Shown: positions 349 through 14,893 of the stretch, one piece after another
Layout of the letters: each line of letters starts with the position of its first letter
How positions within the stretch are numbered: the stretch's first letter is position 1
Assembly: GCA_964584455.1 (NCBI GenBank)
Contig: CAZPAE010000003.1
Location: 1 to 19,622, forward strand
Reading direction: 5' to 3'
DNA: 19,622 nucleotides
DNA from: an uncultured Thioalkalispiraceae bacterium
GTDB lineage: Bacteria > Pseudomonadota > Gammaproteobacteria > UBA6429 > Thiohalophilaceae
The notes under the pieces: generated by a model
What the model was told of the DNA's origin: nothing
Database searches by the model: none
What the model saw: the letters and a program-made list of their open reading frames with translations, nothing else
Made by a program: the position numbers and the translations under genes

Positions 349-3300
349 ATGATTGGGCGAATTATCTCATGGTCGGTTGGCAATCGTTTTCTAGTATTGG
401 TGCTGACAGTATTGCTTGTCGGCTGGGGTATCTATGCAATGAAGCAAACCCCATTAGATGCCATACCCGATTTATCTGATGTACAAGTGATTATTAAAAC
501 TACTTATGCTGGGCAAGCCCCGCAAGTTATTGAGGATCAAGTTACTTACCCGCTAACAACAGCGATGTTATCGGTACCCGGTGCCGTTACTGTACGTGGT
601 TATAGCTTTTTTAATGATTCCTATGTTTATGTGATTTTTGAAGATGGCACTGATCCTTATTGGGCACGTTCTCGGGTATTAGAGTATTTAAGCCAAGTAT
701 CTGCCAGATTACCTGCTGCTGCACGACCTGAGTTAGGACCGGATGCAACAGGAGTAGGTTGGATTTATGAGTATGCTTTGGTGGATAGGCAGGGTGGTCA
801 TGATTTATCGCAATTGCGTAGCATTCAGGACTGGTTTTTAAAATATGAATTGCAAACGGTCAAAGGTGTATCCGAAGTAGCAACTGTGGGCGGCATGGTA
901 AAGCAATATCAGGTAGTTGTTTATCCTGATAGGCTTCGTGCCTATAACATTCCTCTAGCCACTATTCGAAATGCCATTATTAATGCAAATCAAGAAGTGG
1001 GTGGTTCAGTTATTGAGATGGCTGAAGCAGAATATATGGTAAAAGCTGGTGGATATATTAGTTCGATCGATGATTTACGTGCAGTACCGGTGACAGTAAA
1101 TGAAAATGGTACACCGGTATTATTAAAAGATATTGCAGATGTGCGTGTAGGGCCACAACTTCGGCGCGGTATTGCTGAGTTAAACGGTGAAGGGGAAGTG
1201 GTTGGTGGTATCGTGGTAATGCGTTGGGGGGAGAATGCATTAACAACCATTGAAGCAGTAAAAGAAAAACTTGCTGATTTACAGGCTGGGTTACCTGAAG
1301 GTGTTGAGATTGTCACAACTTACGATCGCTCAGGCCTTATTCTTCGGGCAGTGGATAATTTACAGACAAAGCTATTCCAAGAGTTTATCTTAGTTGTCAT
1401 TGTTTGCGCTGTCTTTTTATTCCATTTGCGCTCGTCCTTAGTCGTTGTTATTAGTTTACCTATCGGGATTATAGGTGCATTTGTCATTATGCATTTACAA
1501 GGTATTAACGCCAACATTATGTCCCTGGGCGGAATTGCCATTGCTATTGGTGCCATGGTGGATGCGGCGATTGTGATGATTGAGAATGTTCATAAACATA
1601 TTGAACAGGCAAAGGGCAAAATAGATAATCATTGGCGTTTAATACTTGATGCTTCGATGGAAGTTGGACCATCCTTATTTTTCTCGCTATTGATTATCAC
1701 TTTGAGTTTCTTACCGGTTTTTGCCCTAGAGGCACAAGAGGGGCGATTATTCTCACCACTTGCTTATACAAAAACCTATGCAATGGCGGTGGCGGCAGGG
1801 TTATCTATTACCCTGGTACCGGTTCTCATGGGCATTTTCATTCAAGGTAAAATTACACCGGAATCAGCTAATCCCGTTAATCGGTTTTTAATGAAAGGGT
1901 ATAGGCCGTTATTGGTTTTGGCTCTGCGTTATCCTTGGCAGGTTATTGTGATAACCGGGGTATTGGTGGTAATCGGGTTTTATCCGTTTATGAAAATGGA
2001 AAGTGAGTTTATGCCGGCCTTAGATGAAGGCGACTTGCTTTATATGCCAACTACGTTCCCTGCTTTATCCGTGGGTAAAGCTCAGGAGTTACTGCAACAA
2101 ACTGATAAACTCATCCGCACTGTTCCTGAAGTGGAAACCGTGTTTGGTAAAATTGGGCGGGCAGAAACAGCAACGGACCCAGCACCATTGACCATGATTG
2201 AAACAACCATTCAACTCAAGCCTAAATCACAATGGCGTCCAGGCATGGATTTAGAGAAACTCAAACAAGAGTTAAATCGCATCGTCAACATTCCTTCTTT
2301 GGCTAATACGTGGGATCCACCCATTAAAATTCGTATTGATATGTTATCAACCGGAATTAAATCTGATGTGGGGATAAAAATAGCCGGGCCGGACCTAACA
2401 GTTATTCAACAAGTCGGTGAACAAATAGAGCAAGTCTTAAAAGACTTACCGGGTACGGCAAGCATATTTTCAGAGCGCGTTGCCAGTGGGCGCTATGTGG
2501 ATGTGGATATTAACCGCTTAGCTGCGTCGCGCTTAGGTTTGAATGTGAGCGATATTCAAGAGGTAGTGAGTACTGCCGTGGGTGGTATGACCATATCAGA
2601 AAGTGTTGAAGGTCTGGAGCGCTACCCGATTAATTTACGTTATCCGCGTGAATTACGTGACTCACCCACTAAGTTAGCTAATCTTCCTATTGTTACACCC
2701 AGTGGGGCTCGGATTCCTTTAAGTGATGTAGCGGATATTAAAATTACCGATGGCCCGGCGATGATTAAAAGTGAAAATGCCCGTCCTAATGGCTGGGTCT
2801 ACATAGAAATTGCTGGCCAAGGTCTTTCTTCATATGTGAAACAAGCTAAACAGCGTGTTGCTGAGCAGGTGACAGTTCCTGCGGGATATAGCATAGGCTG
2901 GTCTGGACAGTTTGAATATTATGAACGGGCAAGCCAGCGCTTAATCGTGGTAGTCCCATTCACGTTGATCATTATTATTGTTTTGTTATATCTCAACTTT
3001 AAAAATATAACCGAAGTTTTTTTAATATTAGCTACCTTGCCTTTGGCATTGGTTGGTGGTGGTTGGTTATTGTATTGGCTGGGCTTTAAGATGTCAGTGG
3101 CGGTAGCAATGGGCTTTATTGCGCTCGCCGGTGTTGCTGTAGAAACGGGAGTCGTGATGTTGTTGTATTTAAATTTAGCTTGGCAGCGTCAAGTTCGACT
3201 ACAACAAACAAGCCGAACGGATTTGCTCAATGCCATTATTGAAGGTGCCTTACATCGTTTACGGCCTAAGCTTATGACGGTGCTAACGATTATTGCCGGC

Positions 3301-3465
3301 TTGTTACCTATTATGTTTGGTACTGGCACAGGTTCTGAAGTGATGCAACGGATTGCTGCACCCATGATAGGCGGTATGGTCAGTTCAGCAATCTTGACTT
3401 TGATTGTGTTACCAGCAGTGTTTTTATTATGGAAGTCACATCAGCTTAATAGGGTAAATAGTTGA
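349..3465 (+). CDS. cusA: Heavy-metal efflux RND permease of the CusA/CzcA family (HME-RND), 1038 aa.
   Basis: The N-terminus [19 protein letters not shown]...[80 protein letters not shown] is near-colinear with E. coli CusA. The length and 12-TM/large-periplasmic-loop layout fit the family. It is operonic with the cusB fragment. Confidence 0.95.
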
Positions 3466-3652
3466 TCTATGTTAGATAAGTGGTTTAGTGAGAAAACAGT
3501 TTTCGTTAGTATGACAATGCCTTTTTAACTTGATGTGATTATAATGACAGTAGTACGAGATGTTATATTATGATATTTAGTTAAACTAAATAGCCGGTGA
3601 TGTGTCTTATTAACGATGGTGGCAGTACTATCATGATAAAGGTGGGTAGCAT

Positions 3653-3675
3653 GCAGCTTAATAATATTAAGCTGC
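3653..3675. repeat. Perfect 23-nt palindrome (11-bp arms, single-nt centre) that covers the stop codon of the HDOD gene.
   Basis: GCAGCTTAATA a TATTAAGCTGC is read directly from the sequence. It lies in the cusA/HDOD convergent intergenic region. It is not followed by a U-run on either strand, so it is not a canonical intrinsic terminator. Confidence 0.5.
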
Positions 3676-4524
3676 AAGATCGTAATAGAGTAGTTCCAAC
3701 AGTTCATCCAACATGCTGTACACTTTTCCGTAATAACGCTCGATAGTGGCTTGATCTAGGTTAAGTAACTCAAGTGCACCTTGGTCTAGAATGGTATCGT
3801 CTACCTTTGATACAGGTGCTTGGATATTGTTAGCAATGACATTAGCGACATGCAAAATACAGGTATCGGTTTTAAAGTCATCTTCACAGGTGAGATCATG
3901 GTGATGCAAAATAGGTTCATAAATCGACTTTGGGAAGTACCATGCCTTGAGCAATGCATGCCCCAGTTCTTCATGGGTAAAACCGAAGATCTCTTTTTCC
4001 AGACCATTGTAGCTGACCTTCTTTTTTCGGCAGGCCCTCTTTAGTTTAAATGACTCATTGGGTACCAGTAGATACATTGCCATGACACCAATATCATGTA
4101 ACAAACCACCGATAAAAAGCCTCTCAGAGTTGGGGATATCTTTATCTAAAGCAATGGCGCGAGCGGCTAAACCGGCGGTAATGCTATGGCACCAAAATGC
4201 TTCAACATCGAATTCTTTGTCGATGCCTTTGCTAAAACGGTTAACGATAGTGGATGCAAAGACTAAATCACGTAATTGGCGTGTGCCTAATACGGTCACC
4301 GCCATACTGAGTGTTTCTATTTTTGAAGGAAAGTTATAAAACGGGCTATTAACAAATTTTAATAACCGAACAGTTAGCGCAGGATCCTGGCCGATACATT
4401 CTGCAATATCCACAGCAGATGAGCCCGGTTCGTTAAGTAAGGTATTCACCCGCTGTATAACTGCAGGTAAAGAGACAAGTTTAATGTTTTTATTAACCAA
4501 ATCATCCGGTGACATTGATGACAC
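3667..4524 (-). CDS. HDOD (HD-related output domain) signalling protein, 285 aa. Encoded on the minus strand with a GTG start at 4524.
   Basis: The reverse complement of 4524..3667 translates to MSSMSPDD...LYYDLAA*. The forward strand at 3667 reads L S C K..., so the '+' label in the ORF track is wrong. AGGAG lies 7 nt upstream of the GTG on the minus strand. Sequence motifs (AVIQRVNTLLNEPGSSAVDIAECIGQDPALTVRLLKFVNSPFY...GLLHDIGVMAM...HHHDL) are typical of the HDOD family. Confidence 0.78.
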   Translation of the reverse strand: MSSMSPDDLVNKNIKLVSLPAVIQRVNTLLNEPGSSAVDIAECIGQDPALTVRLLKFVNSPFYNFPSKIETLSMAVTVLGTRQLRDLVFASTIVNRFSKGIDKEFDVEAFWCHSITAGLAARAIALDKDIPNSERLFIGGLLHDIGVMAMYLLVPNESFKLKRACRKKKVSYNGLEKEIFGFTHEELGHALLKAWYFPKSIYEPILHHHDLTCEDDFKTDTCILHVANVIANNIQAPVSKVDDTILDQGALELLNLDQATIERYYGKVYSMLDELLELLYYDLAA

Positions 4525-4797
4525 GATAATCTCCTAGTACGAGTTTTATCTATAGAGCAATGCTACCACCAGAGGGACTTGGACGTAGACAACGACTGTA
4601 AAAATAGTTAAGCAATGATGATAGTAAAGATATTACAAATAGCTAACACATGTTTCAATCAATTATTTATATATTGCGACTCTTATCAACTTAACTTTAA
4701 TAATGCCTATGTAACTAAGGGACATTTATAGCATTATGGGGAATTTGATTACCATTATTATAAAAATGATAGACCATATGAGGCCAATTTTATTGTT

Positions 4798-7047
4798 ATG
4801 AGTAAAGAATTTATTTTATCGGTTAATGGTATGAGCTGCGCAGGTTGTGTTAGCTCTGTAGAGAAAGCACTACGTGCCGTCGTTGGTGTAGAGCATGTTG
4901 ATATTAACTTTGCAGAACATACGGCTGTTGTTAAAGGTACAACCAATGTGAGCCAATTGATCGAAGCAGTAAGGTCTGCTGGTTATGATGCTGCCGAGTT
5001 ACGTGATATGGCCGATGAGGAAAATAAACAACAAGCCGAGCAACAACACTATCAGCAGCTTGTCCGTCAATCGGTGGTCGCAGCGGTGATTGGAATACCA
5101 CTTTTTTTGTTAGGGATGACAGGTATGTTGCCAGCAATCGCAACAAGCGATGGTCAATCAGCATTGAATATAGGACAAGTGACGTGGTTAATTGTCGCAG
5201 CACTCACATTAGGCGTCATGATTTATTCAGGGCGCCAATTTTTTGTTGGCGCATGGAAGTCATTAACCACACACAATGCAAATATGGATACCTTGATTGC
5301 ACTAGGCACAGGTACAGCATGGTTATATTCCGTTTTTGTTGTATTGGCGCCAGATACTATTATTTCGTTTAACCAACATGTGTATTTTGAGGCGGCCATT
5401 ATCATTATTGGGTTAATCAATTTTGGTAGCGCATTAGAGATGCGGGCACGTGGCAAAACATCACAAGCCATTCAACGTTTAATCGGTTTACAGCCTAAGA
5501 CAGCGCGTGTGGTTCGTGATGGGCAGGAGCAGGATATACCTATCGCACGGATTGGTCTGGGGGAAACATTGCGTGTAAGACCCGGTGAGCGGATTGCTGT
5601 TGATGGCAATATCATTGAAGGTCGGTCTTATGTGGATGAGTCAATGTTGACAGGGGAACCGATGCATATTGAAAAGAATATCGGGGATGAAGTGGTTGCT
5701 GGGACCATGAATGTCTCCGGCACATTCCTATATCAATCTCAACGAATTGGTGCTGACACGGTTTTAGCACAAATTATTCAGTTAGTGCGCCAAGCACAAT
5801 CCAGTAAACCAGCTATAGGTCGTTTAGTGGATAAAGTAGCAGCTGTGTTTGTGCCCAGTGTACTGATTATTGCCATTATTAGCTTTCTGGTATGGGCTAA
5901 TTTTGGTGGTGACAATGCAATGGGCCTAGCCATCATTACGACGATGACCGTACTTATTATTGCTTGTCCGTGTGCTTTGGGCCTAGCCACACCCATATCA
6001 ATCATGGTTGGCATTGGCAAAGCTGCAGAGCTTGGGGTGTTAATTCGCAATGGTGAAGCATTACAAGCTGCCTCGAAGATCTCCACGGTGGTTTTAGATA
6101 AAACCGGTACTATCACCCAAGGTACACCAACAGTAACCGATGTTGCCACGGTTAGTTCGGTTAACGAAGAAAAGGTTCTCCAATTAGCAGCGAGCTTAGA
6201 GCAAGGCTCAGAACACCCATTGGCACAAGCCATTTTGGTGAAGGCTCAGGAGAGACAGATAGTGTTGTTACCGTCTGAGCATTTTCAGGCAATATCTGGG
6301 ATGGGGGTTGTAGCACACATTGCCGATCAGCAAGTGCTATTGGGCAATGATAAATTGATGCAACAGTATAATGTGGATTATACGCTGTTAAGCGATGCTG
6401 CTAAGCGTTATGCACAACAAGCTAAAACAGCAATATACTTAGCCCGTGACAGACAATTACAAGCGGTGATTGCCATTGCGGATCCTATTAAACCAGGGTC
6501 GGCTGATGCCATTGCGCAATTACAGTCGCGAGGTTTAAAAGTGGTGATGTTGACAGGCGATAATGAAGTCACAGCCAATGCTGTTGCCAAGTCGGTAAAA
6601 GTGGCGCATGTGATTGCCGGTGTTTTACCGCAGGATAAGGATAAGCATATTGCAACTTTACAAGCTAGCCAAGAAGTGGTGGCGATGGTGGGGGATGGGA
6701 TTAATGATGCACCGGCATTAGCGCGGGCCAATATCGGTTTTGCCATTGGCACTGGAACCGACGTGGCGATAGAAAGTGCCGATGTGACCCTTATGCAGGG
6801 TTCATTACATGGTGTGGTCGATGCGATTAATATTTCACAGGCAACATTACGGAATATTAAACAAAATCTGCTTGGGGCCTTCTTTTATAATACATTAGGT
6901 ATTCCCATTGCTGCCGGGGTGCTCTATCCATTTTTTGGTATCCTGCTTAATCCGATGATTGCTGGGGCAGCGATGGCACTGTCTTCGGTCACGGTGGTTA
7001 CCAATGCTAATCGCTTACGGATGTTGAGATCGGAGCGTCAGCAATGA
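4798..7047 (+). CDS. copA: Cu(I)-translocating P1B-1-type ATPase, CopA-like, with a single N-terminal HMA domain. 749 aa.
   Basis: GMSCAGC metal-binding motif at the N-terminus. CPC motif in the TM6 region ([13 protein letters not shown]). DKTGTIT phosphorylation site, SEHPLA and [10 protein letters not shown] nucleotide-domain motifs. Cu(I)-specific YN (FFYNTLGIP) and M(A)LSS (MALSSVTV) transmembrane signatures are present. Confidence 0.95.
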
Positions 7048-7285: not shown

Positions 7286-8095
7286 ATGTCATGGTGGGGA
7301 AAATTAGTCGGCGGTGCATTGGGGTTTGCCATGGGAGGCCCGATTGGCGCAATGGTAGGCGCATTTGCCGGACACCAGCTTGATCAGGGTTTGAAGCGAG
7401 CAGCGGAGTATGATGCGCTAGGGCATGGTACCGGGCAACATCAGGCTCGTGCGCAAACAGCTTTTTTTACCACGTTATTTTCTGTGATGGGACACTTGGC
7501 CAAGGCAGATGGACGAGTGAGCGAAACAGAGATACAAATGGCGCGCAATGTCATGCAGCAAATGCAGCTGGATGAGCAACAAAAACGGTTTGCCATTGAG
7601 TTGTTTGGAAAAGGCAAGGCGGCTGATTTTCCACTAGACGAGATTTTGGATCAGTTCCATCGTGAGTGCAGCCGTAATCGTAATTTAATGCAAATGTTTA
7701 TTGAGATTCTATTGCATGCGGCCTATGCCGATGGACACATGCATGATGCAGAACGCCATGTCTTTATTCGGATTTGCAAAAAAATCGGTTTTTCGCAATC
7801 AGAATTTGCGCGATTAGAGCGTATGGTACATGCACAACGCAATTTCCATGGCCAAGGGCAACAACAGGCAGGTAAATCTCAAGCCGATTTACTCCAAGAA
7901 GCCTATGTTGCATTAGGTGTGGATGCCTCTGCCAGTGATGCAGAAGTGAAAAAAGCCTATCGTCGACAAATGAATCAACATCATCCGGACAAATTAGTAG
8001 CCAAAGGACTACCAGAAGAGATGATTAAGCTAGCGAATGAGAAGACCCAAGAGATCAAAGCTGCCTACGAAACCATTAAGCGTGCACGTAACTAA
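7286..8095 (+). CDS. djlA: DnaJ-like co-chaperone DjlA, built as an N-terminal TM segment, a TerB-like middle domain and a C-terminal J domain.
   Basis: N-terminus MSWWGKLVGGALGFAMGGPIGAMVGAFAGH, as in DjlA. C-terminal J domain DLLQEAYVALGVDASASDAEVKKAYRRQMNQHHPDKL carries the HPD motif. AAAGGGG Shine-Dalgarno upstream of the ATG. Confidence 0.85.
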   Translation: MSWWGKLVGGALGFAMGGPIGAMVGAFAGHQLDQGLKRAAEYDALGHGTGQHQARAQTAFFTTLFSVMGHLAKADGRVSETEIQMARNVMQQMQLDEQQKRFAIELFGKGKAADFPLDEILDQFHRECSRNRNLMQMFIEILLHAAYADGHMHDAERHVFIRICKKIGFSQSEFARLERMVHAQRNFHGQGQQQAGKSQADLLQEAYVALGVDASASDAEVKKAYRRQMNQHHPDKLVAKGLPEEMIKLANEKTQEIKAAYETIKRARN

Positions 8096-9564
8096 AGGCT
8101 ATTTAAGAAAGCATAAAGTTGTTGTTTTTCTTCTTCAGAAAGTTCAGCAAAACGATTTCGTACAATTTCAGCTTCACCACCATGCGCTAAAATCGCATCA
8201 CGTAAGGTTGTTGCCCGACCATCATGCAAATACTGTTTACGTAAATGTAATCCCCACAGTGGGGCTGTACGCCAATCGCGACCACCTGCCTCACCCTGGA
8301 TGATTTTATCATCTAAGTCAGGCCCCATATCATGCAAAAGCAAATCGGAATAGACGAAGATCTTTTTACCATCAACCTCGAAAAAAGGCGTATGACATTT
8401 AACGCAGCCTGTTTCGTGGAAAAGTTTTTCGCCACCTAAGCGGGTGTCTGGTAATGATACTGAATAGCCAGTTTGTATTTGGCTGGTATAAAACATATTG
8501 GCACCAAAGCCCATTGAGTTAAATCCATAAGCCAGTGCGCCACTGATTGTGAATAAAAAGGCAAATAAAATGACCGGGGCGATGAGCAATTTTTTGCTTA
8601 ATTGTTTCACATCACGAAAGTGAGTTTGCATGCCCAATGCGGCCATCACTAAAACAAATAAAAAGGTAGTGATTTGGGCGATAGTTTGCGTAATGGTTTC
8701 GTCAGGTGCAGCTAAAGAGTTGATAATAACAGCAATGATAAAACCGATGATAAACCAGGGGAATGTACGTGCAAGACTCTTTTTCTCTTTACTATGGAAT
8801 ATCAGGGAGCCGACAATCAATAATACCGGGATTAATAAAAGAACACGGCTTAGCTTAACAATGGTGGCTGCGTTACCTGCATCCTGTGATACGTTATAAC
8901 CGGCACCAACAACTTGTACGACTTCATGTAATGAGGCGCCAGCTAATACACCGTAGGTGGATTCATTGAGCGGACCGAACAAACCCGCATTATACATAAT
9001 AGGTAGTACAATCATGGCAATGGTGCCAAGAATGGTTATCACCGTCACTGCCAGTACAGTTTGATGATGCTTCGCTTTTAATAGCGGTGCAGTGGCAAAG
9101 ATGGCAACTGCACCACAGATGGCGGTGCCCATAATAATCAAAAAGCTAGTGGTGTATTCAAGTTTGAACCAGCGAATAAATAAAATATAGCCAAATAGCA
9201 AGGTCGTGATGACAGCAATCACCGCTATGATAATGCCTTCAATACCAAAACCAAATAATTCACCAATCGTCAGCTGAAAGCCAATTAAAATAACACTAAA
9301 CCGCAATAAACGTTTTAAGACAAAATTGAGCCCTGCCCACCAAGAGGGGGGAATGGTAAAAGTGTTACCAATTAATAACCCGAAGATGAGCCCCATAAAT
9401 AAAGGACTGCTGCTAAGAAAACCCTTCACCCCCGTGGATATGTAATAAGCAAGCCCACCAACGATGATGGTGGCAATTAATCCTGGCATAATTTGTAGCA
9501 ACGGGTTATGTGCCATATGCGGGGAAAATAGGTTTAACACTTGTTGGCGAGAGAGAGAAGACAT
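8092..9564 (-). CDS. Chimeric ORF with two parts. The first ~365 aa form a YeiH/UPF0324 (PF03601-like) polytopic membrane protein. It runs in-frame into ~120 aa matching the C-terminal part of a DUF1111-type di-heme c-type cytochrome domain (CVKCH heme site, YSDLLLHDMG, RTAPLWG, YLHDGRA, HGGEA, FLNSL).
   Basis: Near-colinear with E. coli YeiH (PGL...LIGN...LLR-x-ILIGFQLT...IMGTAICGAVAIFATAP...ASLHEVVQVVGAG...FPWFIIGFI...LLIAPVILF). There is no stop after the last TM. The frame continues into GGEKLFHETGCVKCH...HGGEAEIVRNRFAELSEEEKQQLYAFLNSL. The start is placed at ATG 9564 (M20 of the track ORF). That position gives an N-terminal length like other YeiH proteins and sits 1 nt after the upstream gene's TAA. 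The track start at 9621 would create a 56-nt overlap with that upstream gene. Neither candidate start has an obvious Shine-Dalgarno. Confidence 0.7.
   Translation of the reverse strand: MSSLSRQQVLNLFSPHMAHNPLLQIMPGLIATIIVGGLAYYISTGVKGFLSSSPLFMGLIFGLLIGNTFTIPPSWWAGLNFVLKRLLRFSVILIGFQLTIGELFGFGIEGIIIAVIAVITTLLFGYILFIRWFKLEYTTSFLIIMGTAICGAVAIFATAPLLKAKHHQTVLAVTVITILGTIAMIVLPIMYNAGLFGPLNESTYGVLAGASLHEVVQVVGAGYNVSQDAGNAATIVKLSRVLLLIPVLLIVGSLIFHSKEKKSLARTFPWFIIGFIIAVIINSLAAPDETITQTIAQITTFLFVLVMAALGMQTHFRDVKQLSKKLLIAPVILFAFLFTISGALAYGFNSMGFGANMFYTSQIQTGYSVSLPDTRLGGEKLFHETGCVKCHTPFFEVDGKKIFVYSDLLLHDMGPDLDDKIIQGEAGGRDWRTAPLWGLHLRKQYLHDGRATTLRDAILAHGGEAEIVRNRFAELSEEEKQQLYAFLNSL
8451..8457. repeat. GTAATGA (plus strand; TCATTAC in coding sense). 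This is the distal copy of a 7-bp direct repeat at the YeiH-to-DUF1111 junction.
   Basis: Read directly from the sequence. An identical 7-mer sits at 9592-9598 at the homologous point of the interrupted DUF1111 frame (codons TCA TTA C = Ser-Leu in both fragments). Confidence 0.45.
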
Positions 9565-9591
9565 CTTATTGTGTAACTTGGGTTGGAATTT
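8458..9591 (-). other. Putative 1,134-bp inserted segment carrying exactly one gene (yeiH-like). It is bounded by the 7-bp direct repeats, and deleting it in silico rejoins the two DUF1111 halves in frame.
   Basis: Joining ...GCC TTT ATT CGG TCA TTA C | CA GAC ACC CGC TTA GGT GGC GAA... gives ...AFIRSL PDTRLGGEKLFHETGCVKCH..., a continuous DUF1111-like sequence. On the coding strand the segment begins with an in-frame TAA for the upstream fragment, 1 nt, then the yeiH-like ATG. No transposase, integrase or terminal inverted repeats are present. Confidence 0.4.
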
Positions 9592-11650
9592 GTAATGACC
9601 GAATAAAGGCTGATACATCATGGATTAAATCCACAGGATGATCATAAACTAATTGTTCATCTGCATTATTAAATGCTTGGCGAGTTGTACTTGCTTGTAA
9701 CATCAAGGGCGTAGTAATACCGAGTTCTGTCGCAAACGCCTCAGCAACCATAATGTTTAAAGTAGGGTTGTGTGCTTTCCAGCCATACTTACCTACATAC
9801 ATCTTGCCATCGGCACCTCTTGCTAAGTTCGGTTTACCATGAATACCATCCCCTTTCGGTACAGCACCTTTGAGAATCAACTCATCAGGGATAAGATCAA
9901 TTAAGCCGAGACCATATAAAGGTGGTGCTGTTCGTATTGATGTGACATTGGCTTGTTGCGGGATACCCACAATATGGTTTTCATCATCGCTGCTAATGGC
10001 GTGGCGGCGAATTTGTGGTCCACCACGACCTGTTAAGTCATCAAAGCCACCACTTAAATTTTCAAGTATGCCAACGCGTATGGCTGTTGTTGCTTCACCA
10101 ATACCAGCACCGCCCACCGAGGGCACATTATGGCAACTAACACAGTTGCGATCATTAAAGCGTGGACCTAACCCTTCACTTACGGTAAAGGAATGCATAA
10201 AAGATTTTTTGCCGCGTAGAACTTGTTCGGCAGGCAAATTCACTTCATTATAAAATTGTTGATTGTTGGCATACATTTGTGGCTGGGCAGTAGCGCTAAA
10301 CGCAGGTACTTCAATCAAAATACCAGGATGCTTGGGGTAATTAGGTAGACTACCGTTTAAAGTGAGACGAATTTTTTGTGCATCGGCTGAAATCGCAATG
10401 CCATTAATGCGGCCTGCGTTGATTAGTCCTAGTCCTGGCACATGGATTTTGGCAACGGCACTGACTTCACCATGTTGGTTCATGCGTAATAAAGAACCGT
10501 TACCACGGTTTGCTACAAACATATCTGCGCCACCGGCTAAGGGTGTGTGACTAGTAAAGCCAGAATTAGCAATTTCAGGAATTGCCGGTGCAACATCGAT
10601 GGGAAAGGAAAAATAACGCGAACGAAGACGTTGTAATTTATCAACATGAAACAAGTGCGCATCTTGTTTTAGATCGACTTTAGCAATACTGTTGGTTGTC
10701 GGTTCCGTAATAAATAGTGTTTTTACCGGTGTCCAGTTAAAGGCCATGCCCACATGGGTTGCATTCATGTCTAACGGATTGTGACGATTGACCACAGTGT
10801 TAATTCGTAGCGTAGTAGCGGGGAGTAGGCCATCTACACCATCACGTACATGTACTTGGGTAATTTCCCCGTTGGATTGCACCACGGCAAATACCGCAAA
10901 GCCAGAACCATCAGGTGACTTGCCCATAAAGGCAGTGCTAATGGCGCACGTCATTAAGTCTCCCGTGACATATTGTTTAGGTCGGCGATTGGTTTTACTT
11001 CCAGTAAAAACGCCACCGGCAACGACACTGGGTGGGTTTGCCAAAGGTCGACCTGTTGCATCAATCACGGTGCTAGTACCAGGTCCGCTATCGCCAAAGG
11101 GGCAATTAGCAAACCAGGGACGACCAAATGCATTATTAATAGAAATATACTTTGGGTTTGCCACGGATAACTGTTCTGCTGAGATCGTTGTGGGGTTATT
11201 CTTACGGTTGCTGAACGCAGCATGTTGCGCTGTAAATACACGTACATGACCATTAAGCGTTGCCGCTTGCCCACCATCGATAGCAAAGTGAGGCGGTATC
11301 ACTAATGTCTCGGTTTGAAATGGATCAATAGAAAGAATCGTCCCGCCTCGTTGACTGCTAATGGCCAGAGGTGCACCGTAGTTAACGTGACTGGTAACAA
11401 GCAACCGTTTGGGATCTAACACTTCTCCAGGACGGGTGAATTGATTAAATTCCGGTAAATGGTTAATCGGGCTATCTGGGTGAAAATAGCCTACCTCTCT
11501 AACGCTTCCAATACCTGGGATACCTACGGCGATGATACGTGCTTTTAATTCTAGCTCAGTAATATCTGTAGCACTGGCAAAACCTGTTGCCCACAGTAAA
11601 GCAAACAGGGTACCTGTTTTGAGTTTGGACAGCATAGCCATGGCGTTCAC
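9566..11650 (-). CDS. Exported protein (signal peptide ...ATGFASA|TD) of 694 aa in two parts. The first ~450 aa form an uncharacterised, possibly beta-propeller-like domain. The last ~200 aa match the first part of a DUF1111 di-heme domain (GLGPRFNDRNCVSCH, then GKYGWKAHNPTL, then DHPVDLIHDVSAFIRSLQIP). It ends prematurely relative to the family.
   Basis: Typical Sec signal peptide. The first CXXCH with the GLGP-FN-x-x-C-x-x-CH context and the GWKA-x-PTL block is characteristic of DUF1111 ('putative thiol oxidoreductase/di-heme peroxidase') proteins. The ORF stops immediately before the yeiH-like ATG, and the rest of the domain is found downstream fused to the YeiH-like protein. Start is ambiguous: GTG 11650 overlaps the preceding gene's stop, and ATG 11641 is an alternative. 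Confidence 0.68.
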   Translation of the reverse strand: MNAMAMLSKLKTGTLFALLWATGFASATDITELELKARIIAVGIPGIGSVREVGYFHPDSPINHLPEFNQFTRPGEVLDPKRLLVTSHVNYGAPLAISSQRGGTILSIDPFQTETLVIPPHFAIDGGQAATLNGHVRVFTAQHAAFSNRKNNPTTISAEQLSVANPKYISINNAFGRPWFANCPFGDSGPGTSTVIDATGRPLANPPSVVAGGVFTGSKTNRRPKQYVTGDLMTCAISTAFMGKSPDGSGFAVFAVVQSNGEITQVHVRDGVDGLLPATTLRINTVVNRHNPLDMNATHVGMAFNWTPVKTLFITEPTTNSIAKVDLKQDAHLFHVDKLQRLRSRYFSFPIDVAPAIPEIANSGFTSHTPLAGGADMFVANRGNGSLLRMNQHGEVSAVAKIHVPGLGLINAGRINGIAISADAQKIRLTLNGSLPNYPKHPGILIEVPAFSATAQPQMYANNQQFYNEVNLPAEQVLRGKKSFMHSFTVSEGLGPRFNDRNCVSCHNVPSVGGAGIGEATTAIRVGILENLSGGFDDLTGRGGPQIRRHAISSDDENHIVGIPQQANVTSIRTAPPLYGLGLIDLIPDELILKGAVPKGDGIHGKPNLARGADGKMYVGKYGWKAHNPTLNIMVAEAFATELGITTPLMLQASTTRQAFNNADEQLVYDHPVDLIHDVSAFIRSLQIPTQVTQ
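9592..9598. repeat. GTAATGA (plus strand). This is the proximal copy of the 7-bp direct repeat, at the point where the upstream DUF1111 fragment diverges.
   Basis: Read directly from the sequence. It encodes the Ser-Leu of ...FIRSLQIP... and matches the Ser-Leu of ...SVSLPDTRLGG... at 8451-8457. Confidence 0.45.
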
Positions 11651-13311
11651 TTAAACTGTTTTGCAAACTTAGGCGCAGTTGTCTCTTTATCTTGTTCAAG
11701 AAACTCAAGAATATTACTGGCACCTAAGACTGCGGCAGGGCCATTCAATCCGTTGCTTTCACCTTGCACTAATACTGTAGGGACTTTCACCATTTCTGGA
11801 TTATTCTTTGCTGCATCCAGTACTTCCTTGAGCATAGTGAGTTTTAATACCCGATCTTTACCAAATACAGAAACCATGGCTTGTTGACCTTGTGCCACTT
11901 CACGCAGACGTAGCTTTTCAGCGCGGCCGCGCAGTTTCATGGTATCAATTTGTTTATTCGCCACTTGTTGTTCTACTTCTGCTTTGGCTAAGGTGGCTTG
12001 TTCATTTGCGCTTGCTTTGGTTTTTTCTAATTCAATTCGTTTTTGTTGTGCTAAATGTTCCTTTTCAAACGTACTGCTGAGCATACCGGCTAGTTGCTTA
12101 CGTTGGTTAGCAGCAAGGATTTCGGCTGGGATGGCTAACTCGCCCAGGCGTACTGATTGTAACATTACACCAATATGCGCAAGTTCGGGCTCAAGTTTAT
12201 TATGGATGGCGGCTTCGAGTTCTGCTCGGCGCGAGATAATATCGGCAACTGGAATGTTTTTCTCAGATACAATGTTTTGTACTTCACTACGCAAGAAGGG
12301 TGTAATAACCGTTTGTTTCACTTGTTCCAGATCGCCAATATTCGCAACTAAGCGTGGTGCGTTATTCGGTGACACATTAATGGTTAATCGAATTTCAGTG
12401 GCAATCGGCCAACCTTGAAACATTACTGTAATCGCTTGATCTGTGGCATCAATCGGTTGTTCAATCACAGAGCTTGATACTTGTTGTACAACATTACCAT
12501 CATTTGCAACAGATAATTCAATTTGGCGTTTGGTATAGCCGCCTTTATAAGAAACTTGTTGTGATAGCGTCGGAATAATCGTGGCTTGGTATGCTAAGTG
12601 GTTAAGATAATATTTGCCTGGGCCAAGGACCTCTTGCCAAACGCCAGCACAACCTTGTTTTACCAATGGTGTGTGTTCAGATGAAGCAATGGTTTGACAG
12701 TCTTCTGATTGGTTGATGTTTGATTTAACTACGGCCACTTCACCTGCACGTACATCTAATGGCTCTTGATTGGTAATCTCATATAAGTAGTGATTAATCC
12801 GGTATTGCCCCGGTTTGAGTACCATCAGTTGCGGCCCTTTTTGGCCGCCTTGGGTTAGAAAGTATTCGGCATTAAGGAATGCACTATGCTGATCAGCAGG
12901 CCAAGGATCAGATAAAAACTGACCTGGTTGAAGTTGTTGCCCGTCTTTTGCGGTAATCAGACCATATTGATCATTGGGAATAGAAACAATGGGGAGCTCT
13001 TCTATATCGTAAATAACCGTTAATAAGGGTGAGAAATGAAAGCCAGGCCCCAGTACGCGTGCTTGTGGACCATTTTGTCCCTCTAGGGCAATGATTTGTC
13101 CTGCCTTTAGGGGATCACCAAAATAAATACGAGTGAGATGACCGACTTTATCTTTATCAACAATGTGTATTGATGTTAACGATAAACTAGTGACGGCAAG
13201 TATACTGCTTAGTACAAGTGTAGGATAGTAATAACGTGATTGTTTTTTTAAAGACAAGTAGCTCCATACTGCTACGCTAATAAATATGATGCTTAAGCTC
13301 AGATACAACAT
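11647..13311 (-). CDS. Flotillin-like (YqiK family) SPFH/band-7 inner-membrane protein, ~554 aa from ATG 13311.
   Basis: N-terminal TM segment(s), then an SPFH-like start (VDKDKVGHLTRIYFGDPLKAGQIIALEGQNGPQARVLGPGFHF). The C-terminal coiled-coil and tail (…EKTKASANEQATLAKAEVEQQ…KDRVLKLTMLKEVLDAAKNNPEMVKVPTVLVQGESNG) are colinear with the E. coli YqiK C-terminus. The start is moved from the track's TTG 13323 to ATG 13311, which has a GGAGG 6 nt upstream. Its stop overlaps the start of the next gene. Confidence 0.65.
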   Translation of the reverse strand: MLYLSLSIIFISVAVWSYLSLKKQSRYYYPTLVLSSILAVTSLSLTSIHIVDKDKVGHLTRIYFGDPLKAGQIIALEGQNGPQARVLGPGFHFSPLLTVIYDIEELPIVSIPNDQYGLITAKDGQQLQPGQFLSDPWPADQHSAFLNAEYFLTQGGQKGPQLMVLKPGQYRINHYLYEITNQEPLDVRAGEVAVVKSNINQSEDCQTIASSEHTPLVKQGCAGVWQEVLGPGKYYLNHLAYQATIIPTLSQQVSYKGGYTKRQIELSVANDGNVVQQVSSSVIEQPIDATDQAITVMFQGWPIATEIRLTINVSPNNAPRLVANIGDLEQVKQTVITPFLRSEVQNIVSEKNIPVADIISRRAELEAAIHNKLEPELAHIGVMLQSVRLGELAIPAEILAANQRKQLAGMLSSTFEKEHLAQQKRIELEKTKASANEQATLAKAEVEQQVANKQIDTMKLRGRAEKLRLREVAQGQQAMVSVFGKDRVLKLTMLKEVLDAAKNNPEMVKVPTVLVQGESNGLNGPAAVLGASNILEFLEQDKETTAPKFAKQFK

Positions 13312-13354
13312 AATGCCCTCCAACCTAATGCGATGCTGAACACCTGCTCGTCTG

Positions 13355-13374
13355 CTTTGATCTTATCAAAGATC
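13355..13374. promoter_or_regulatory. Interlocked palindromes (CTTTGAT ctt ATCAAAG and GATCT...AGATC) in the 5' region of the flotillin-like gene. Candidate operator.
   Basis: Read directly. Located ~45-65 nt upstream of the ATG at 13311 on the minus strand, next to a TTGACC -35-like hexamer. Confidence 0.25.
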
Positions 13375-13598
13375 TCGGGTCAACATGATAATAAAAAGGT
13401 TTTGTTACTACGTTACTATAAGCACTATAAAAATAATGTTATAGCGATGTAGATAATTAAACCTACCGATAGGGGCATTTCGGTAATGAAACTATGTATA
13501 CAAGATCAACAATAGTGAATGAGACTAATTGTTACACTTTGTTACGTAGAGTGCATACAAAATCTAGGTAAGTATGATTATACCGAAAGATGGCAGCA

Positions 13599-14069
13599 TT
13601 ATAATGTGAAGTAACGTCCACCACCGGCAATTAATACGACTAATAAGCCAAGTGATAAATTAAGAGCGATCAATTTACGAATTTGGTTTAACCGTTTACC
13701 ACCATCTGGCCAATCTTGTTTGATCACCGCTTGTTTTAAACGTTTATACGGTGCAAAGAATACATGCATATATATAAGTATCATTGCGATACCTAGTCCA
13801 TTCATCATATGCACATATACAGGGGTTTGTGCAAAGCTACCCCAAGTGGAAAACAACATGTAATAGCCAGTGCCCAGTAACAAAATAATTGAAAGCCAGA
13901 CAAAAGGGAAAAAATGGTTAAACACTCCGACCCATAAAGTCAGTCGTTGTGGTGGTTCAAGTTGCTGGGCGGCAACAGGGCGCAATGCCATATAGGCGAA
14001 AAACATACCGCCGACCCAAATGACAGCAGAAAGTAAATGAAGTATTAAGGTAAGCGATTTAATCGTCAT
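13599..14069 (-). CDS. Small 4-TM membrane protein of the HemJ/CopD superfamily (UPF0093-like). Possibly a HemJ-type protoporphyrinogen oxidase or a CopD-like protein.
   Basis: 156 aa with four hydrophobic helices. His in TM1 (LILHLLSAVIWVGGMFF...R) and a second conserved His (IYMHVFF). A basic loop (KRLKQAVIKQDWPDGGKRLNQIRK) precedes the last TM, as in HemJ. Assignment is from pattern recall only. Confidence 0.4.
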   Translation of the reverse strand: MTIKSLTLILHLLSAVIWVGGMFFAYMALRPVAAQQLEPPQRLTLWVGVFNHFFPFVWLSIILLLGTGYYMLFSTWGSFAQTPVYVHMMNGLGIAMILIYMHVFFAPYKRLKQAVIKQDWPDGGKRLNQIRKLIALNLSLGLLVVLIAGGGRYFTL

Positions 14070-14083
14070 AAGATTCTCATTAT

Positions 14084-14893
14084 TTAATTGGTTTTAAGTT
14101 CAACACCCTTGGCATGTTTATTAAGCCAACCACGAATGCGTTTGATCAGTATGTCATTCATATTATCAAAAAAATGGTTCGCGCCTGGTACTTTAATTTG
14201 TGTGTAAGTGGGTTTATTGGCTTGTTTGCCTGCACGAAGCCGTACATCAGCACTGGATACAACGGAGCTTAAATCTTCACTGCCATAGATGTCGAGAATA
14301 GGCATCTGGATCTTAGCGAGGTTTTTTACATTGCTATAACGATCATCGAATGAGAAACGGCTCATACCAATGGCTACATAAGCTCTTACCGTTGGGTCCG
14401 GTTTATTCGCGAGATAGTATGCGGACATAACGGTGCCCAAACTATGAGCAATAATCACAATATTGTTTATCCCTTTTGCTTTTAAGAAATTAACCCCGGC
14501 CTTAATACGACTGGGCACCTCTTCCATGAGTGGAACATAATCTTTCGACTCAGCTTCATTGGGTAAAATGGGCATTTGTAACGATAGGGTATGCCAGCCA
14601 TGTTCAGGTAAATCGATTCGAGTTGGCTCAATAATGTCCGGCCAAGCAGGATGAATCCCAATACCATGGATGACTAAAGCGGCACCATGCGTATGGTCAG
14701 CCTCATTTTCTGTATAGAGAGCTAGAAACTCTGTGCCGTTAGCTTTGAGTTTGACCGCATCGCCAACCATCAAGCTGGGTACAATTTGTTCTTCCCAGCG
14801 CTTTTCTTTGGCCAAGTCTGACGTTGATGCGGCAATGCAAATGCTCGAAATCGCCAAAAATACCAGGCTAATCAGGTATCTGGGTAGGGTCAT
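14084..14893 (-). CDS. Secreted or lipoprotein alpha/beta-fold hydrolase.
   Basis: Signal peptide. HG oxyanion motif (VIHGIGIHP). Nucleophile elbow IIAHSLGTV (G/A-x-S-x-G). C-terminal GANHFF with the catalytic His. GGAG Shine-Dalgarno 9 nt upstream. A 14-nt gap separates it from the downstream membrane-protein gene, so the two are likely an operon. Confidence 0.72.
   Translation of the reverse strand: MTLPRYLISLVFLAISSICIAASTSDLAKEKRWEEQIVPSLMVGDAVKLKANGTEFLALYTENEADHTHGAALVIHGIGIHPAWPDIIEPTRIDLPEHGWHTLSLQMPILPNEAESKDYVPLMEEVPSRIKAGVNFLKAKGINNIVIIAHSLGTVMSAYYLANKPDPTVRAYVAIGMSRFSFDDRYSNVKNLAKIQMPILDIYGSEDLSSVVSSADVRLRAGKQANKPTYTQIKVPGANHFFDNMNDILIKRIRGWLNKHAKGVELKTN

What the first reader, a model, noticed from the sequence alone, without database searches (positions are those of the whole stretch)
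8451..9598. 7-bp direct repeats (GTAATGA) sit exactly at the two breakpoints, and deleting the segment between them restores an in-frame DUF1111 gene
The same heptamer (TCA TTA C in coding sense, Ser-Leu in both frames) occurs at 9592-9598, just before the upstream fragment diverges into ...QIPTQVTQ*. It occurs again at 8451-8457, just before the downstream fragment resumes with PDTRLGGEKLF. Excising 8458-9591 gives ...DHPVDLIHDVSAFIRSL-PDTRLGGEKLFHETGCVKCH..., which matches the canonical DUF1111 progression. This looks like a target-site duplication or a short-homology recombination scar. The 1,134-bp segment contains only the yeiH-like gene, prefixed by TAA-n-ATG, and no transposase or terminal inverted repeats. 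It therefore does not resemble a classical IS or transposon. It may be a non-autonomous insertion, an illegitimate-recombination product or a precise gene-cassette-like event.
Basis: seen in the sequence. Interest (0 to 1): 0.7.

Follow-up and report, generated by a model that had tools for sequence, protein, structure and literature searches.

The report
Ancient split haem gene, coincidental repeat
The 7-base repeat is real but most likely a coincidence: the "interrupted" gene is an old, widely conserved and apparently functional two-gene arrangement, in which the second haem domain of a periplasmic oxidoreductase is fused to a YeiH-type membrane transporter.

Summary
GTAATGA does occur at 8451-8457 and 9592-9598. 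Removing one copy plus the spacer (1141 nt, not the stated 1134) does give an open 802-codon DHOR/DUF1111 frame. The repeat is not at the homology breakpoints, though. Gene A continues for 8 more codons that align with the linker of intact relatives, and it stops at the position most common among A-type relatives. The rejoined linker would be 5-7 residues shorter than in 14 scored intact homologues. Matches of this kind occur by chance in 4-17% of comparable zone pairs, and in 4 of 6 homologous loci at unrelated positions.

What is really there is a conserved gene pair. Gene A (9566-11641, minus strand) encodes a signal peptide, a six-bladed beta-propeller and haem domain 1. Gene B (8092-9564, minus strand) encodes a YeiH/PF03601 transporter fused in frame, with no stop codon, to haem domain 2. 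The same A-then-B pair occurs in Chloroflexota, Cyanobacteria and Alpha-, Beta- and Gammaproteobacteria. Split and intact forms are separate clades (bootstrap 100/100), and fused YeiH moieties form one clade (82/100). One old event therefore explains them all.

The real indel in this genome is the whole 5.5-kb SPFH-A-B module, which is absent between djlA and copD in related genomes. The function is inferred only: a membrane-tethered split di-haem enzyme.

The parts
9592..9598 (-). Upstream heptamer copy (TCATTAC in coding sense). It covers codons Ser682-Leu683 and the first base of Gln684 in gene A. This is the conserved [S/T/A]-L that ends the last helix of haem domain 1.
   Evidence: The motif is conserved in A-type and intact homologues. 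In the AF2 model of intact homologue P0002, the matching helix is 654-665.
8451..8457 (-). Downstream heptamer copy. It covers codons Ser370-Leu371 and the first base of Pro372 in gene B, inside the variable linker between the last transmembrane helix and haem domain 2.
   Evidence: The linker is not conserved, and Ser-Leu is absent from other B proteins.
8928..8934 (-). Third copy of the same heptamer, inside the YeiH-like coding part.
   Evidence: 9 copies in the window against 3.3 expected.
9566..11641 (-). Gene A, 691 aa. It has a Sec-type signal peptide (MAMLSKLKTGTLFALLWATGFASA), a six-bladed beta-propeller of about 440 aa, and haem domain 1 (CVSCH). The stop codon TAA is at 9568-9566.
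8092..9564 (-). Gene B, 490 aa, one open frame. It begins at ATG 9564-9562, one nucleotide after A's TAA, and ends at TAG 8094-8092.
   Evidence: The start at 9564 aligns with the starts of 34 homologues. The database record calls a 509-aa product, which matches the ATG-9621 ORF.
8509..9564 (-). YeiH/PSE (PF03601) transporter moiety of B, residues about 1-352. It has about 9 transmembrane helices and 2 re-entrant helices.
   Evidence: PF03601, 264 bits, profile positions 1-303 of 304. AF2 helices. 24 positions are at least 90% identical in both fused and stand-alone YeiH. N-in topology with a periplasmic C-terminus is taken from PMC8396727 and PMC12880088.
8443..8508 (-). Variable linker of B, residues about 353-374.
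   Evidence: Alignment A2 shows no conservation and variable length here. AF2 pLDDT is below 50 for residues 354-374.
8095..8442 (-). Haem domain 2 of B, residues about 375-490. It carries CVKCH and the motifs YSDLLLHDMG, DWRT.PL and LHDGRA.
   Evidence: PF06537, 94.9 bits, profile positions 365-499 of 499. Invariant columns are listed. Identity is 57-68% to haem domain 2 of other B proteins and 50-57% to that of intact forms.
11647..13323 (-). SPFH/Band-7 membrane protein gene, first gene of the module. Its TGA stop at 11649-11647 lies 5 nt (11646-11642) before A's ATG at 11641. The likely start is ATG 13311.
   Evidence: The same SPFH-A-B order is seen in an Ardenticatenaceae MAG. SPFH-A fusion proteins are P0016 and P0018.
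13324..13598 (-). AT-rich 5' non-coding region of the module, with two weak sigma-70-like matches on the minus strand (13453-13415).
   Evidence: These are consensus matches only, and there were fewer than in shuffled sequence.
8080..13611 (.). The 5.5-kb SPFH-A-B module, which is the real indel of this genome. Relatives have 39 bp (L087) or about 145 bp (L088) here, between djlA and copD.
   Evidence: No tRNA gene, no flanking repeats and no Rfam match.

Best explanation
The heptamer pair is a chance match of a common word (the Ser-Leu codons TCA-TTA followed by C) inside an old, conserved two-gene locus that looks intact and constrained. It is not the scar of an insertion in this genome.

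In an ancestor of this gene family, a contiguous periplasmic protein (beta-propeller, then haem domain 1, then haem domain 2) was split in the loop between its two c-type haem domains. A YeiH-type transporter gene ended up between the halves, and three things followed:
- Gene A stops about 8 codons after the last helix of haem domain 1.
- The transporter gene starts at once, overlapping A's end or within a few nucleotides of it in 9 of 11 loci, which suggests translational coupling.
- The transporter has no stop codon and reads directly into haem domain 2.

YeiH-family proteins are predicted to be N-in with a periplasmic C-terminus. The fused haem domain therefore stays in the periplasm, where c-type haem is attached.

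Most likely working model (inferred, not shown): secreted protein A docks its haem-1 domain onto the transporter-tethered haem-2 domain. This rebuilds a DHOR-type di-haem oxidoreductase at the membrane surface, physically coupled to a transporter whose conserved core residues are retained. In this genome it sits beside an SPFH scaffold protein.

The pair travels as a unit. In this gammaproteobacterial MAG the whole SPFH-A-B module is a 5.5-kb indel relative to two related genomes: present here, absent there.
For: Shown:
- An identical A-then-B architecture is found in Mesorhizobium, Ardenticatenaceae, Nostoc, Ideonella, Rhizobacter and other beta-proteobacterial MAGs. A's stop and B's start overlap by 4 nt or lie 1-3 nt apart in the window and six of these loci. 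L006 has a 10-nt gap and L025 a gap of at most about 59 nt. L003 has a 200-nt gap. L007 and L008 were not resolved.
- All 120 best hits of B are PF03601+PF06537 fusions of 435-529 aa.
- Of the 120 best hits of the rejoined protein, 84 have one haem (A type), 20 have two haems (intact) and 16 are propeller-only.
- An NJ tree of the shared part separates intact and split forms, with bootstrap 100/100.
- Fused YeiH moieties form one clade apart from 39-40 stand-alone YeiH proteins, with bootstrap 82/100.
- Distances co-vary: A against B-YeiH r = 0.96, and A against B-haem-2 r = 0.85, Mantel p <= 0.0005.
- The position of A's stop is conserved: 8 residues after the motif in 32 of 54 proteins.
- Both CXXCH motifs and all family motifs are retained.
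- 24 transporter-core positions are shared with stand-alone YeiH.
- In the AF2 model of intact homologue P0002, the break maps to the coil 666-676 between the last helix of haem domain 1 and the first helix of haem domain 2.
- Chance level of the heptamer.
- An independent assembly reproduces the A/B junction.
- The module is absent at the syntenic site of two relatives.

From the literature: YeiH is predicted to have 9 transmembrane helices, an N-in orientation and a periplasmic C-terminus (PMC8396727, PMC12880088).
Against: - No experimental data exist for any member, and A-B complex formation is inferred only.
- The trees are neighbour-joining trees built on the best 120 hits only, and support for the fused-YeiH clade is moderate (82/100).
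- The 16 A-B pairs used in the Mantel test, apart from the window's own, were matched by equal contig length, not by reading the contigs.
- The frame-restoring property of the heptamer has a chance level of about 1-5.5%, which is low but not negligible.
- No close relative of the window's locus exists in the databases (nearest B is 43% identical, nearest A 46-49%). The recent history of this particular junction therefore cannot be observed directly.
- The AF2 model of B alone gives low confidence for haem domain 2, so its fold in the fusion is not independently modelled.
Confidence: 0.88

Rival explanations
1. A non-autonomous element or gene cassette carrying only yeiH recently inserted into an intact DHOR gene of this genome. 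It duplicated 7 bp of target (TCATTAC) and disrupted the gene.
For: The heptamers are present, and a 1141-nt excision restores an open 802-codon frame. Chance of a frame-restoring 7-mer is 1-5.5%.
Against: - The same split and fusion occurs in at least 10 other loci with only 34-68% protein identity, and the split forms are monophyletic.
- A continues homologous to the target for 8 codons past the 'TSD', and its stop position is the commonest among A-type relatives.
- The rejoined linker is 5-7 residues too short.
- There are no terminal inverted repeats, no recombinase, and no non-coding 3' end that could hold an attC site.
- GC content is unremarkable: 41.8% against 43.5% for the window.
- Relatives lack the whole module rather than carrying an 'empty' DHOR gene.
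Confidence: 0.02
2. The heptamer is a surviving trace of the microhomology used in the original, ancient illegitimate-recombination event that created the split. Selection on the Ser-Leu codons has kept it.
For: The upstream copy encodes a conserved [S/T/A]-L motif, so part of it is under selection. The downstream copy lies within about 3 codons of where homology to intact forms resumes.
Against: - The downstream Ser-Leu is not conserved in any other B protein examined.
- Synonymous sites would have been saturated at 35-45% protein identity.
- Other split loci show different, non-equivalent 7-8-mers.
- The upstream breakpoint by homology is at A's stop codon, 24 nt further on.
Confidence: 0.03
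3. The locus is a decaying pseudogene pair. The DHOR gene was destroyed and neither fragment functions, so the YeiH part alone matters.
For: A scores only just above the Pfam threshold (25.5 against 22 bits). AF2 gives low confidence for haem domain 2 in B.
Against: - Both frames are open over 691 and 490 codons.
- Both CXXCH motifs are kept, and 60-70 invariant columns are kept across 35-45 homologues at about 40% identity.
- A and B are always adjacent and co-diverge.
- The weak Pfam score reflects the divergent propeller-bearing subfamily, because intact members behave the same way.
Confidence: 0.03
4. The YeiH moiety in B is only a membrane anchor for haem domain 2. There is no functional coupling between transport and redox chemistry.
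For: The genomic context of the A-B pair varies and points to no pathway. Fusing c-type cytochrome domains to membrane proteins as tethers is common (own knowledge, for example caa3 oxidase subunit II). One residue that is invariant in stand-alone YeiH (R240) is Lys in 97% of fused forms.
Against: 24 core positions, including the G-x3-C-G-A-x-A-I and E214 motifs, are kept at 90% or more in fused forms, as in stand-alone YeiH. A simple anchor would not need a 9-helix transporter fold under such constraint.
Confidence: 0.3

Closest known systems
DHOR / DUF1111 (Pfam PF06537) di-haem 'putative peroxidase' proteins. Examples are those in imelysin/EfeO-like iron-uptake operons (PMC3143127; bioRxiv 10.1101/072470).
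   Same: Both haem domains carry the family motifs: CXXCH twice, YSDLLLHDMG, DWRT.PL and LHDGRA. Pfam hits are above threshold for both A and B. Sequence similarity to bacterial di-haem cytochrome c peroxidases is distant.
   Different: Here the two haem domains are on two polypeptides. Haem domain 1 is preceded by a six-bladed beta-propeller of about 440 aa with no Pfam match. Haem domain 2 is fused to a transporter. There are no imelysin/EfeO neighbours.
YeiH / PSE family transporters (Pfam PF03601, TIGR00698). These are needed for sulfite resistance in Salmonella (PMC12880088) and are implicated in sulfur homeostasis in Bordetella pertussis (bioRxiv 10.64898/2026.04.22.720190).
   Same: The Pfam match is full length (264 bits). 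The helix pattern is the same, and 24 core positions are shared at 90% or more.
   Different: B carries a C-terminal c-type cytochrome domain that stand-alone YeiH lacks. The fused forms are a separate clade. There is no adjacent YeiE-type LysR regulator in the window.
Contiguous propeller-DHOR proteins of about 800 aa (for example P0002-P0007; loci L005 and L038), and the propeller-only plus separate DHOR gene pair (L089).
   Same: The domains are in the same order, with 37-46% identity to the rejoined window protein over 96-99% of its length. These are the sister clade of the split forms.
   Different: They have no YeiH gene next to them, and both haem domains are in one chain.
IS, transposon or MITE insertions with target-site duplications, and integron gene cassettes.
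   Same: A short direct repeat brackets a segment that holds a single gene.
   Different: There are no terminal inverted repeats, no transposase or integrase, no attC-capable non-coding end, and no extra copies. The repeat is not at the homology breakpoints, and the arrangement is conserved across phyla.
Gene fission and fusion ('Rosetta-stone') rearrangements, and c-type cytochrome domains fused to membrane proteins (own knowledge, for example subunit II of caa3-type oxidases).
   Same: A domain of one protein is transferred onto a neighbouring membrane protein. The rest is kept as a separate adjacent gene, which implies physical interaction.
   Different: In this case a two-domain redox module is itself cut in half, and one half is tethered to a secondary-transporter fold. 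I found no description of this case in the searchable literature.

Membership tests
Transposable element (IS/MITE) insertion with target-site duplication | Terminal inverted repeats at the ends of the inserted segment | tested here: not met
   The repeat finder on 7900-13800 found no inverted pair with arms at about 8458 and about 9591. The nearest pair (8819-8836 and 9476-9493) is internal and only 83% complementary.
Transposable element (IS/MITE) insertion with target-site duplication | A transposase or recombinase, or for non-autonomous elements other copies of the segment | tested here: not met
   The only reading frame in the segment is PF03601. There is no second copy in the 19.6-kb window. 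The rest of the genome is not available.
Transposable element (IS/MITE) insertion with target-site duplication | The duplication abuts the element ends, so that target homology stops at the repeat and removal restores the native target | tested here: not met
   Target homology continues 8 codons past the upstream copy. The restored linker has 15 residues, against 20-22 in the 14 scored intact homologues.
Transposable element (IS/MITE) insertion with target-site duplication | Empty-site alleles in close relatives | tested here: not met
   Relatives with 80-83% identical TrpE lack the whole SPFH-A-B module; they do not carry an uninterrupted DHOR gene. The nearest B homologue anywhere is 43% identical.
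Integron gene cassette | An attC recombination site at the 3' end of the cassette, and an integrase or attI nearby | tested here: not met
   The YeiH frame has no stop codon and no 3' non-coding sequence; it reads straight into haem domain 2. No integrase is present in the window. Rfam gave no match.
DHOR / DUF1111 (PF06537) | Pfam model match above the gathering score | tested here: met
   A scores 25.5 bits (cut-off 22), profile positions 212-308. B scores 94.9 bits, profile positions 365-499.
DHOR / DUF1111 (PF06537) | Two CXXCH haem-binding motifs in one polypeptide | tested here: not met
   There is one motif in A (CVSCH) and one in B (CVKCH). The pair together has both.
YeiH / PSE transporters (PF03601) | Full-length Pfam match and the family's conserved core motifs | tested here: met
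   264 bits, profile positions 1-303 of 304. 24 positions are shared at 90% or more with 39 stand-alone YeiH proteins.
YeiH / PSE transporters (PF03601) | 9 transmembrane helices plus 2 re-entrant helices, N-in, periplasmic C-terminus | tested here: inconclusive
   The AF2 helices of B fit the pattern. The orientation is taken from the literature, not determined here.
YeiH / PSE transporters (PF03601) | Transport activity, or a sulfite-resistance phenotype | not testable with these tools
   This needs genetics or transport assays.
Conserved split pair: one-haem propeller protein followed by a YeiH-haem-2 fusion | A immediately upstream of B on the same strand; A stops about 8 residues after the [S/T/A]-L motif; B has PF03601 and PF06537 in one frame | tested here: met
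   Window. Ten other loci are L001, L003, L006, L007, L008, L025, L090, L091, L092 and L093. Stop position.
Conserved split pair: one-haem propeller protein followed by a YeiH-haem-2 fusion | Phylogenetic placement inside the split clade, for both A and the YeiH moiety | tested here: met
   100/100; 82/100. The window's proteins sit on long branches within both clades.
Bacterial di-haem cytochrome c peroxidase / MauG superfamily | Significant similarity of both haem domains to solved bCCP structures | tested here: inconclusive
   phmmer against PDB sequences gave E = 3.7e-6 to 3e-3 over short stretches only. Fold searches were dominated by the propeller.

The most novel reading that the evidence does not exclude
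The A/B pair may be an undescribed kind of transporter-coupled enzyme. A DHOR-type di-haem centre would be rebuilt from two polypeptides directly above the periplasmic mouth of a YeiH-type transporter, with a beta-propeller substrate-binding domain. The species moved by the transporter would then be oxidised or reduced as it emerges or before it enters. That species could be sulfite or a related small anion, given the YeiH phenotypes in Salmonella and Bordetella. If so, this would be a Rosetta-stone clue to the chemistry of two poorly understood families, YeiH/PSE and DUF1111.
Probability: 0.3. Interest if true: 0.6.

Novelty: new variant of a known kind. Interest (0 to 1): 0.35.

Why it matters
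The claimed insertion scar is not real, so it reveals no new mobile-element mechanism.

The locus does show a clean natural experiment in domain rearrangement. A two-haem enzyme was cut at its inter-domain loop, and one half was grafted onto the periplasmic C-terminus of a transporter. The result is conserved across several phyla.

Such fusions usually report physical and functional partnership. This one links the YeiH/PSE family, for which only sulfite-resistance phenotypes are known, to periplasmic haem redox chemistry. It also gives a testable hypothesis for both families.

There is a practical point as well. Annotation pipelines label B simply as a 'putative sulfate exporter' and A as a 'di-heme oxidoreductase', although A has only one haem motif.

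Tried and rejected
- Exact look-up of the database's 509-aa version of B found no indexed contig, and cluster look-up gave no names. The organism could therefore only be placed as an uncultured gammaproteobacterium, through TrpE homologues.
- phmmer of the rejoined di-haem part against PDB sequences gave only weak bCCP hits and no close solved structure.
- The AF2 model of B is good for the membrane part but poor for haem domain 2, so it was not used for docking arguments.
It returned mostly stand-alone YeiH and classical DHOR loci, with only four new split loci.
- Searches for flanking repeats, tRNA genes and Rfam families around the 5.5-kb module found nothing that explains how it was acquired.
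- The promoter scan found fewer sites than in shuffled sequence.
- Four literature searches found no paper on the YeiH-cytochrome fusion.
- The genomic neighbourhoods of eight A-B loci share no third gene apart from SPFH in some of them, so context gave no pathway assignment.
- Programmed frameshifting that would join A and B was considered and rejected. The A-B spacing varies from -4 to +200 nt, and an A-B fusion would put the YeiH N-terminus on the wrong side of the membrane.

Full report
**1. The observation**

On the minus strand, two adjacent reading frames cover the region. Gene A runs from 11641 to 9566 (691 aa) and ends ...DVSAFIRSLQIPTQVTQ-TAA. One nucleotide later, ATG 9564 opens gene B, which runs to TAG 8094-8092 (490 aa).

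- Pfam places PF06537 (DHOR/DUF1111) at the end of A: 25.5 bits, profile positions 212-308.
- In B, Pfam places PF03601 (YeiH-like) at residues 28-330 (264 bits) and PF06537 at residues 378-491 (94.9 bits, profile positions 365-499).
- The heptamer GTAATGA is at 8451-8457 and 9592-9598, and the match does not extend beyond 7 nt.
- Excising 8458-9591 as written (1134 nt) leaves both copies and frameshifts. Excising 1141 nt restores an 802-codon frame.
- An independent ENA metagenome assembly is 99.9% identical over 8696-12715, so the A/B junction is not an assembly artefact.

**2. Is the repeat more than chance, and is it at the breakpoints?**

The word occurs 9 times in the window against 3.3 expected, including once more at 8928-8934 inside the segment.

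- Zone pairs 1141 nt apart in this window share a 7-mer or longer in 3.5% of cases at +-15 nt and 16.7% at +-30 nt. With frame-restoring spacing the figures are 1.1% and 5.5%.
- In six homologous split loci, four have a 7-8-mer shared between the equivalent zones, at non-equivalent places.
- Homology puts the breakpoints elsewhere. In an alignment with intact two-haem relatives, A's tail SL-QIPTQVTQ aligns with their SL-xPxxP linker. B rejoins the alignment at about (R)LGGEKLF.
- In the 14 intact homologues where the motif was located automatically, there are 20-22 residues between the conserved Leu and the Cys of the second CXXCH. Six further intact homologues were not scored. The heptamer-rejoined product would have 15 residues. 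A's 8-residue tail plus B from RLGG gives 20.
- Among 54 A-type proteins where the motif could be located, 32 stop exactly 8 residues after that Leu, and 49 have Pro at +2 to +4.
- The Ser-Leu in B's linker is not conserved in other B proteins.

The upstream copy is therefore ordinary conserved coding sequence. The downstream copy lies in a variable linker.

**3. What the locus is**

Searching with the rejoined protein gave 84 one-haem proteins (about 690 aa), 20 two-haem proteins (about 800 aa) and 16 haem-less proteins (about 450 aa) among the best 120 hits. Searching with B gave 120 of 120 best hits as PF03601+PF06537 fusions of 435-529 aa, 37-44% identical to B. Where sources named them, they came from Gallionellaceae, Burkholderiales, Ideonella, Rubrivivax, Roseateles, Pseudoduganella and Nostoc.

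Reading the contigs shows the same A-then-B pair in these places:
- Mesorhizobium (L001)
- an Ardenticatenaceae MAG (L003, with an SPFH gene upstream, as in the window)
- beta-proteobacterial MAGs and Rhizobacter (L006, L007, L008, L025)
- Nostoc (L090)
- Ideonella (L091)
- two further contigs (L092, L093)

In the window and in L001, L090, L091, L092 and L093, A's stop and B's start overlap by 4 nt or lie 1-3 nt apart. L006 has a 10-nt gap and L025 a gap of at most about 59 nt. L003 has a 200-nt gap. L007 and L008 were not resolved.

Contiguous forms have no YeiH neighbour (L005, L038). A third architecture also exists, with a propeller-only gene followed by a separate two-haem DHOR gene (L089).

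**4. One old event**

- A neighbour-joining tree of the part shared by A-type and intact proteins splits them into two clean clades, with bootstrap 100/100 on a 48-taxon subset.
- The YeiH moieties of fused proteins form one clade apart from 39-40 stand-alone YeiH proteins, with bootstrap 82/100. Mesorhizobium has both kinds.
- Across 17 A-B pairs, pairwise distances of A correlate with those of B's YeiH part (r = 0.96) and of B's haem domain (r = 0.85), Mantel p <= 0.0005.
- The window's proteins are long-branch members. The nearest B is 43% identical and the nearest A is 46-49% identical.

At that divergence no nucleotide-level duplication from the founding event could be expected to survive.

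**5. Anatomy and likely mechanism**

- A starts with a typical Sec signal peptide.
- In that model, the helix ending ...FVRSL (654-665) closes haem domain 1. A coil (666-676) follows, and helix 677-684 opens haem domain 2 just before CXXCH. The split forms break in that coil.
- B's membrane part models as about 9 transmembrane helices plus two short helix pairs. This matches the published PSE_1 topology of 9 helices plus 2 re-entrant helices, N-in (PMC8396727), and a periplasmic C-terminus (PMC12880088). Haem domain 2 therefore stays in the compartment where c-type haem is attached. This step is an inference from the literature.
- 24 core positions are at least 90% identical in both fused and stand-alone YeiH, so the transporter core is under the same constraint.
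- All DHOR motifs of haem domain 2 are invariant or nearly so across 45 B proteins.

I infer that secreted A docks on B's tethered haem domain and rebuilds a di-haem oxidoreductase at the membrane. In some lineages an SPFH protein is also associated. It is adjacent in the window and L003, and fused to A in P0016 and P0018.

YeiH homologues are required for sulfite resistance in Salmonella (PMC12880088) and are implicated in sulfur homeostasis in Bordetella pertussis (bioRxiv 10.64898/2026.04.22.720190). That makes a sulfur oxyanion a candidate substrate, but nothing here tests it. Neighbouring genes differ from locus to locus.

**6. The real indel in this genome**

TrpE places the contig in an uncultured gammaproteobacterial lineage. 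Two relatives with 80-83% identical TrpE keep the order HDOD-(CopA)-DjlA-CopD-DUF3530-Rpe-Gph-TrpE-TrpG but lack SPFH-A-B.

By blastn, 39 bp in L087 correspond to window 8080-13611. B's TAG and djlA's TAA overlap (CTAA). No tRNA gene, flanking repeat, recombinase or compositional anomaly marks the module.

**7. Comparison with known systems, and novelty**

The domains belong to known families (PF06537, PF03601) and the fusion is present in the sequence databases. The sources that name it call it a 'putative sulfate exporter family transporter'. I found no description of it in the searchable literature.

The locus fails every tested defining feature of an IS/MITE insertion or an integron cassette. 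It is best described as a new, uncharacterised variant of a di-haem oxidoreductase, split and transporter-tethered. The window holds a divergent member of it.

**8. Verdict**

- The sequence observation is partly right.
- The interpretation as an insertion scar is not supported, although the idea that a YeiH gene lies between two halves of one ancestral gene is correct.
- Interest is modest. There is no new mobility mechanism, but there is a clear and conserved domain-rearrangement clue to two poorly understood families.

Noticed in passing
window 8080-13611: The whole SPFH-A-B module (about 5.5 kb) is present here but absent between djlA and copD in two related gammaproteobacterial genomes (L087, L088). 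No tRNA gene, recombinase or flanking repeat explains how it got here.
   Followed up: partly
window 8092-8095: The stop codons of the convergent genes djlA (TAA, plus strand) and B (TAG, minus strand) overlap in the four bases CTAA. The module therefore abuts djlA with no intergenic space.
   Followed up: no
window 9562-9621: The database record calls a 509-aa product for B. This matches the ORF from ATG 9621, which overlaps A by 56 nt. Alignment with 34 homologues supports ATG 9564 (490 aa), one nucleotide after A's stop.
   Followed up: yes
L089 5001-7441: A third architecture of the same family: a propeller-only gene (452 aa) followed by a separate two-haem DHOR gene (348 aa). Sixteen of the best 120 hits are such haem-less propeller proteins.
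   Followed up: partly
P0016, P0018 (Gallionellaceae); window 11641-13323; L003 3347-5023: An SPFH/Band-7 protein is fused to A in some lineages and is encoded immediately upstream in others. It is absent in Mesorhizobium, Nostoc, Ideonella and several MAGs. A fusion to a haem-bearing periplasmic protein would imply a periplasmic SPFH domain.
   Followed up: partly
B residue 240 (window about 8845-8847): A position that is Arg in 100% of 39 stand-alone YeiH proteins is Lys in 97% of fused forms. Position 213 is His in stand-alone forms and mostly Tyr in fused forms, but the window keeps His.
   Followed up: no
window, whole: GTAATGA/TCATTAC is over-represented: 9 copies against 3.3 expected, with none of 200 shuffles reaching 9. 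Seven of the 9 copies are on the plus strand.
   Followed up: no
L001 8633-9346: In Mesorhizobium, a PAPS-reductase-family gene (PF01507) lies directly downstream of B. This is a possible sulfur link, but it is not seen in the other loci.
   Followed up: no
window 349-7047 and 13599-14893: The neighbourhood is rich in metal and efflux genes: an AcrB-type RND pump, an HDOD protein, a CopA-type P1B ATPase with an HMA domain, a CopD-like protein and DUF3530. These are syntenic in relatives, so they are not part of the module.
   Followed up: partly
model mdde586540cec (B) versus m450a41d4abff (intact homologue): AF2 gives pLDDT of 36-50 for haem domain 2 when it is modelled in B with 45 sequences. 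The same domain scores about 70-96 (mostly 80-96) in the intact homologue, where only 20 sequences cover it. This is consistent with the domain depending on its partner, but alignment effects could also explain it.
   Followed up: no
(representative library): At 50% identity clustering, only about four full-length fused representatives appear, against at least 120 clusters at 90% identity. The fused family is therefore compact in sequence yet spread over several phyla, which suggests horizontal spread.
   Followed up: no
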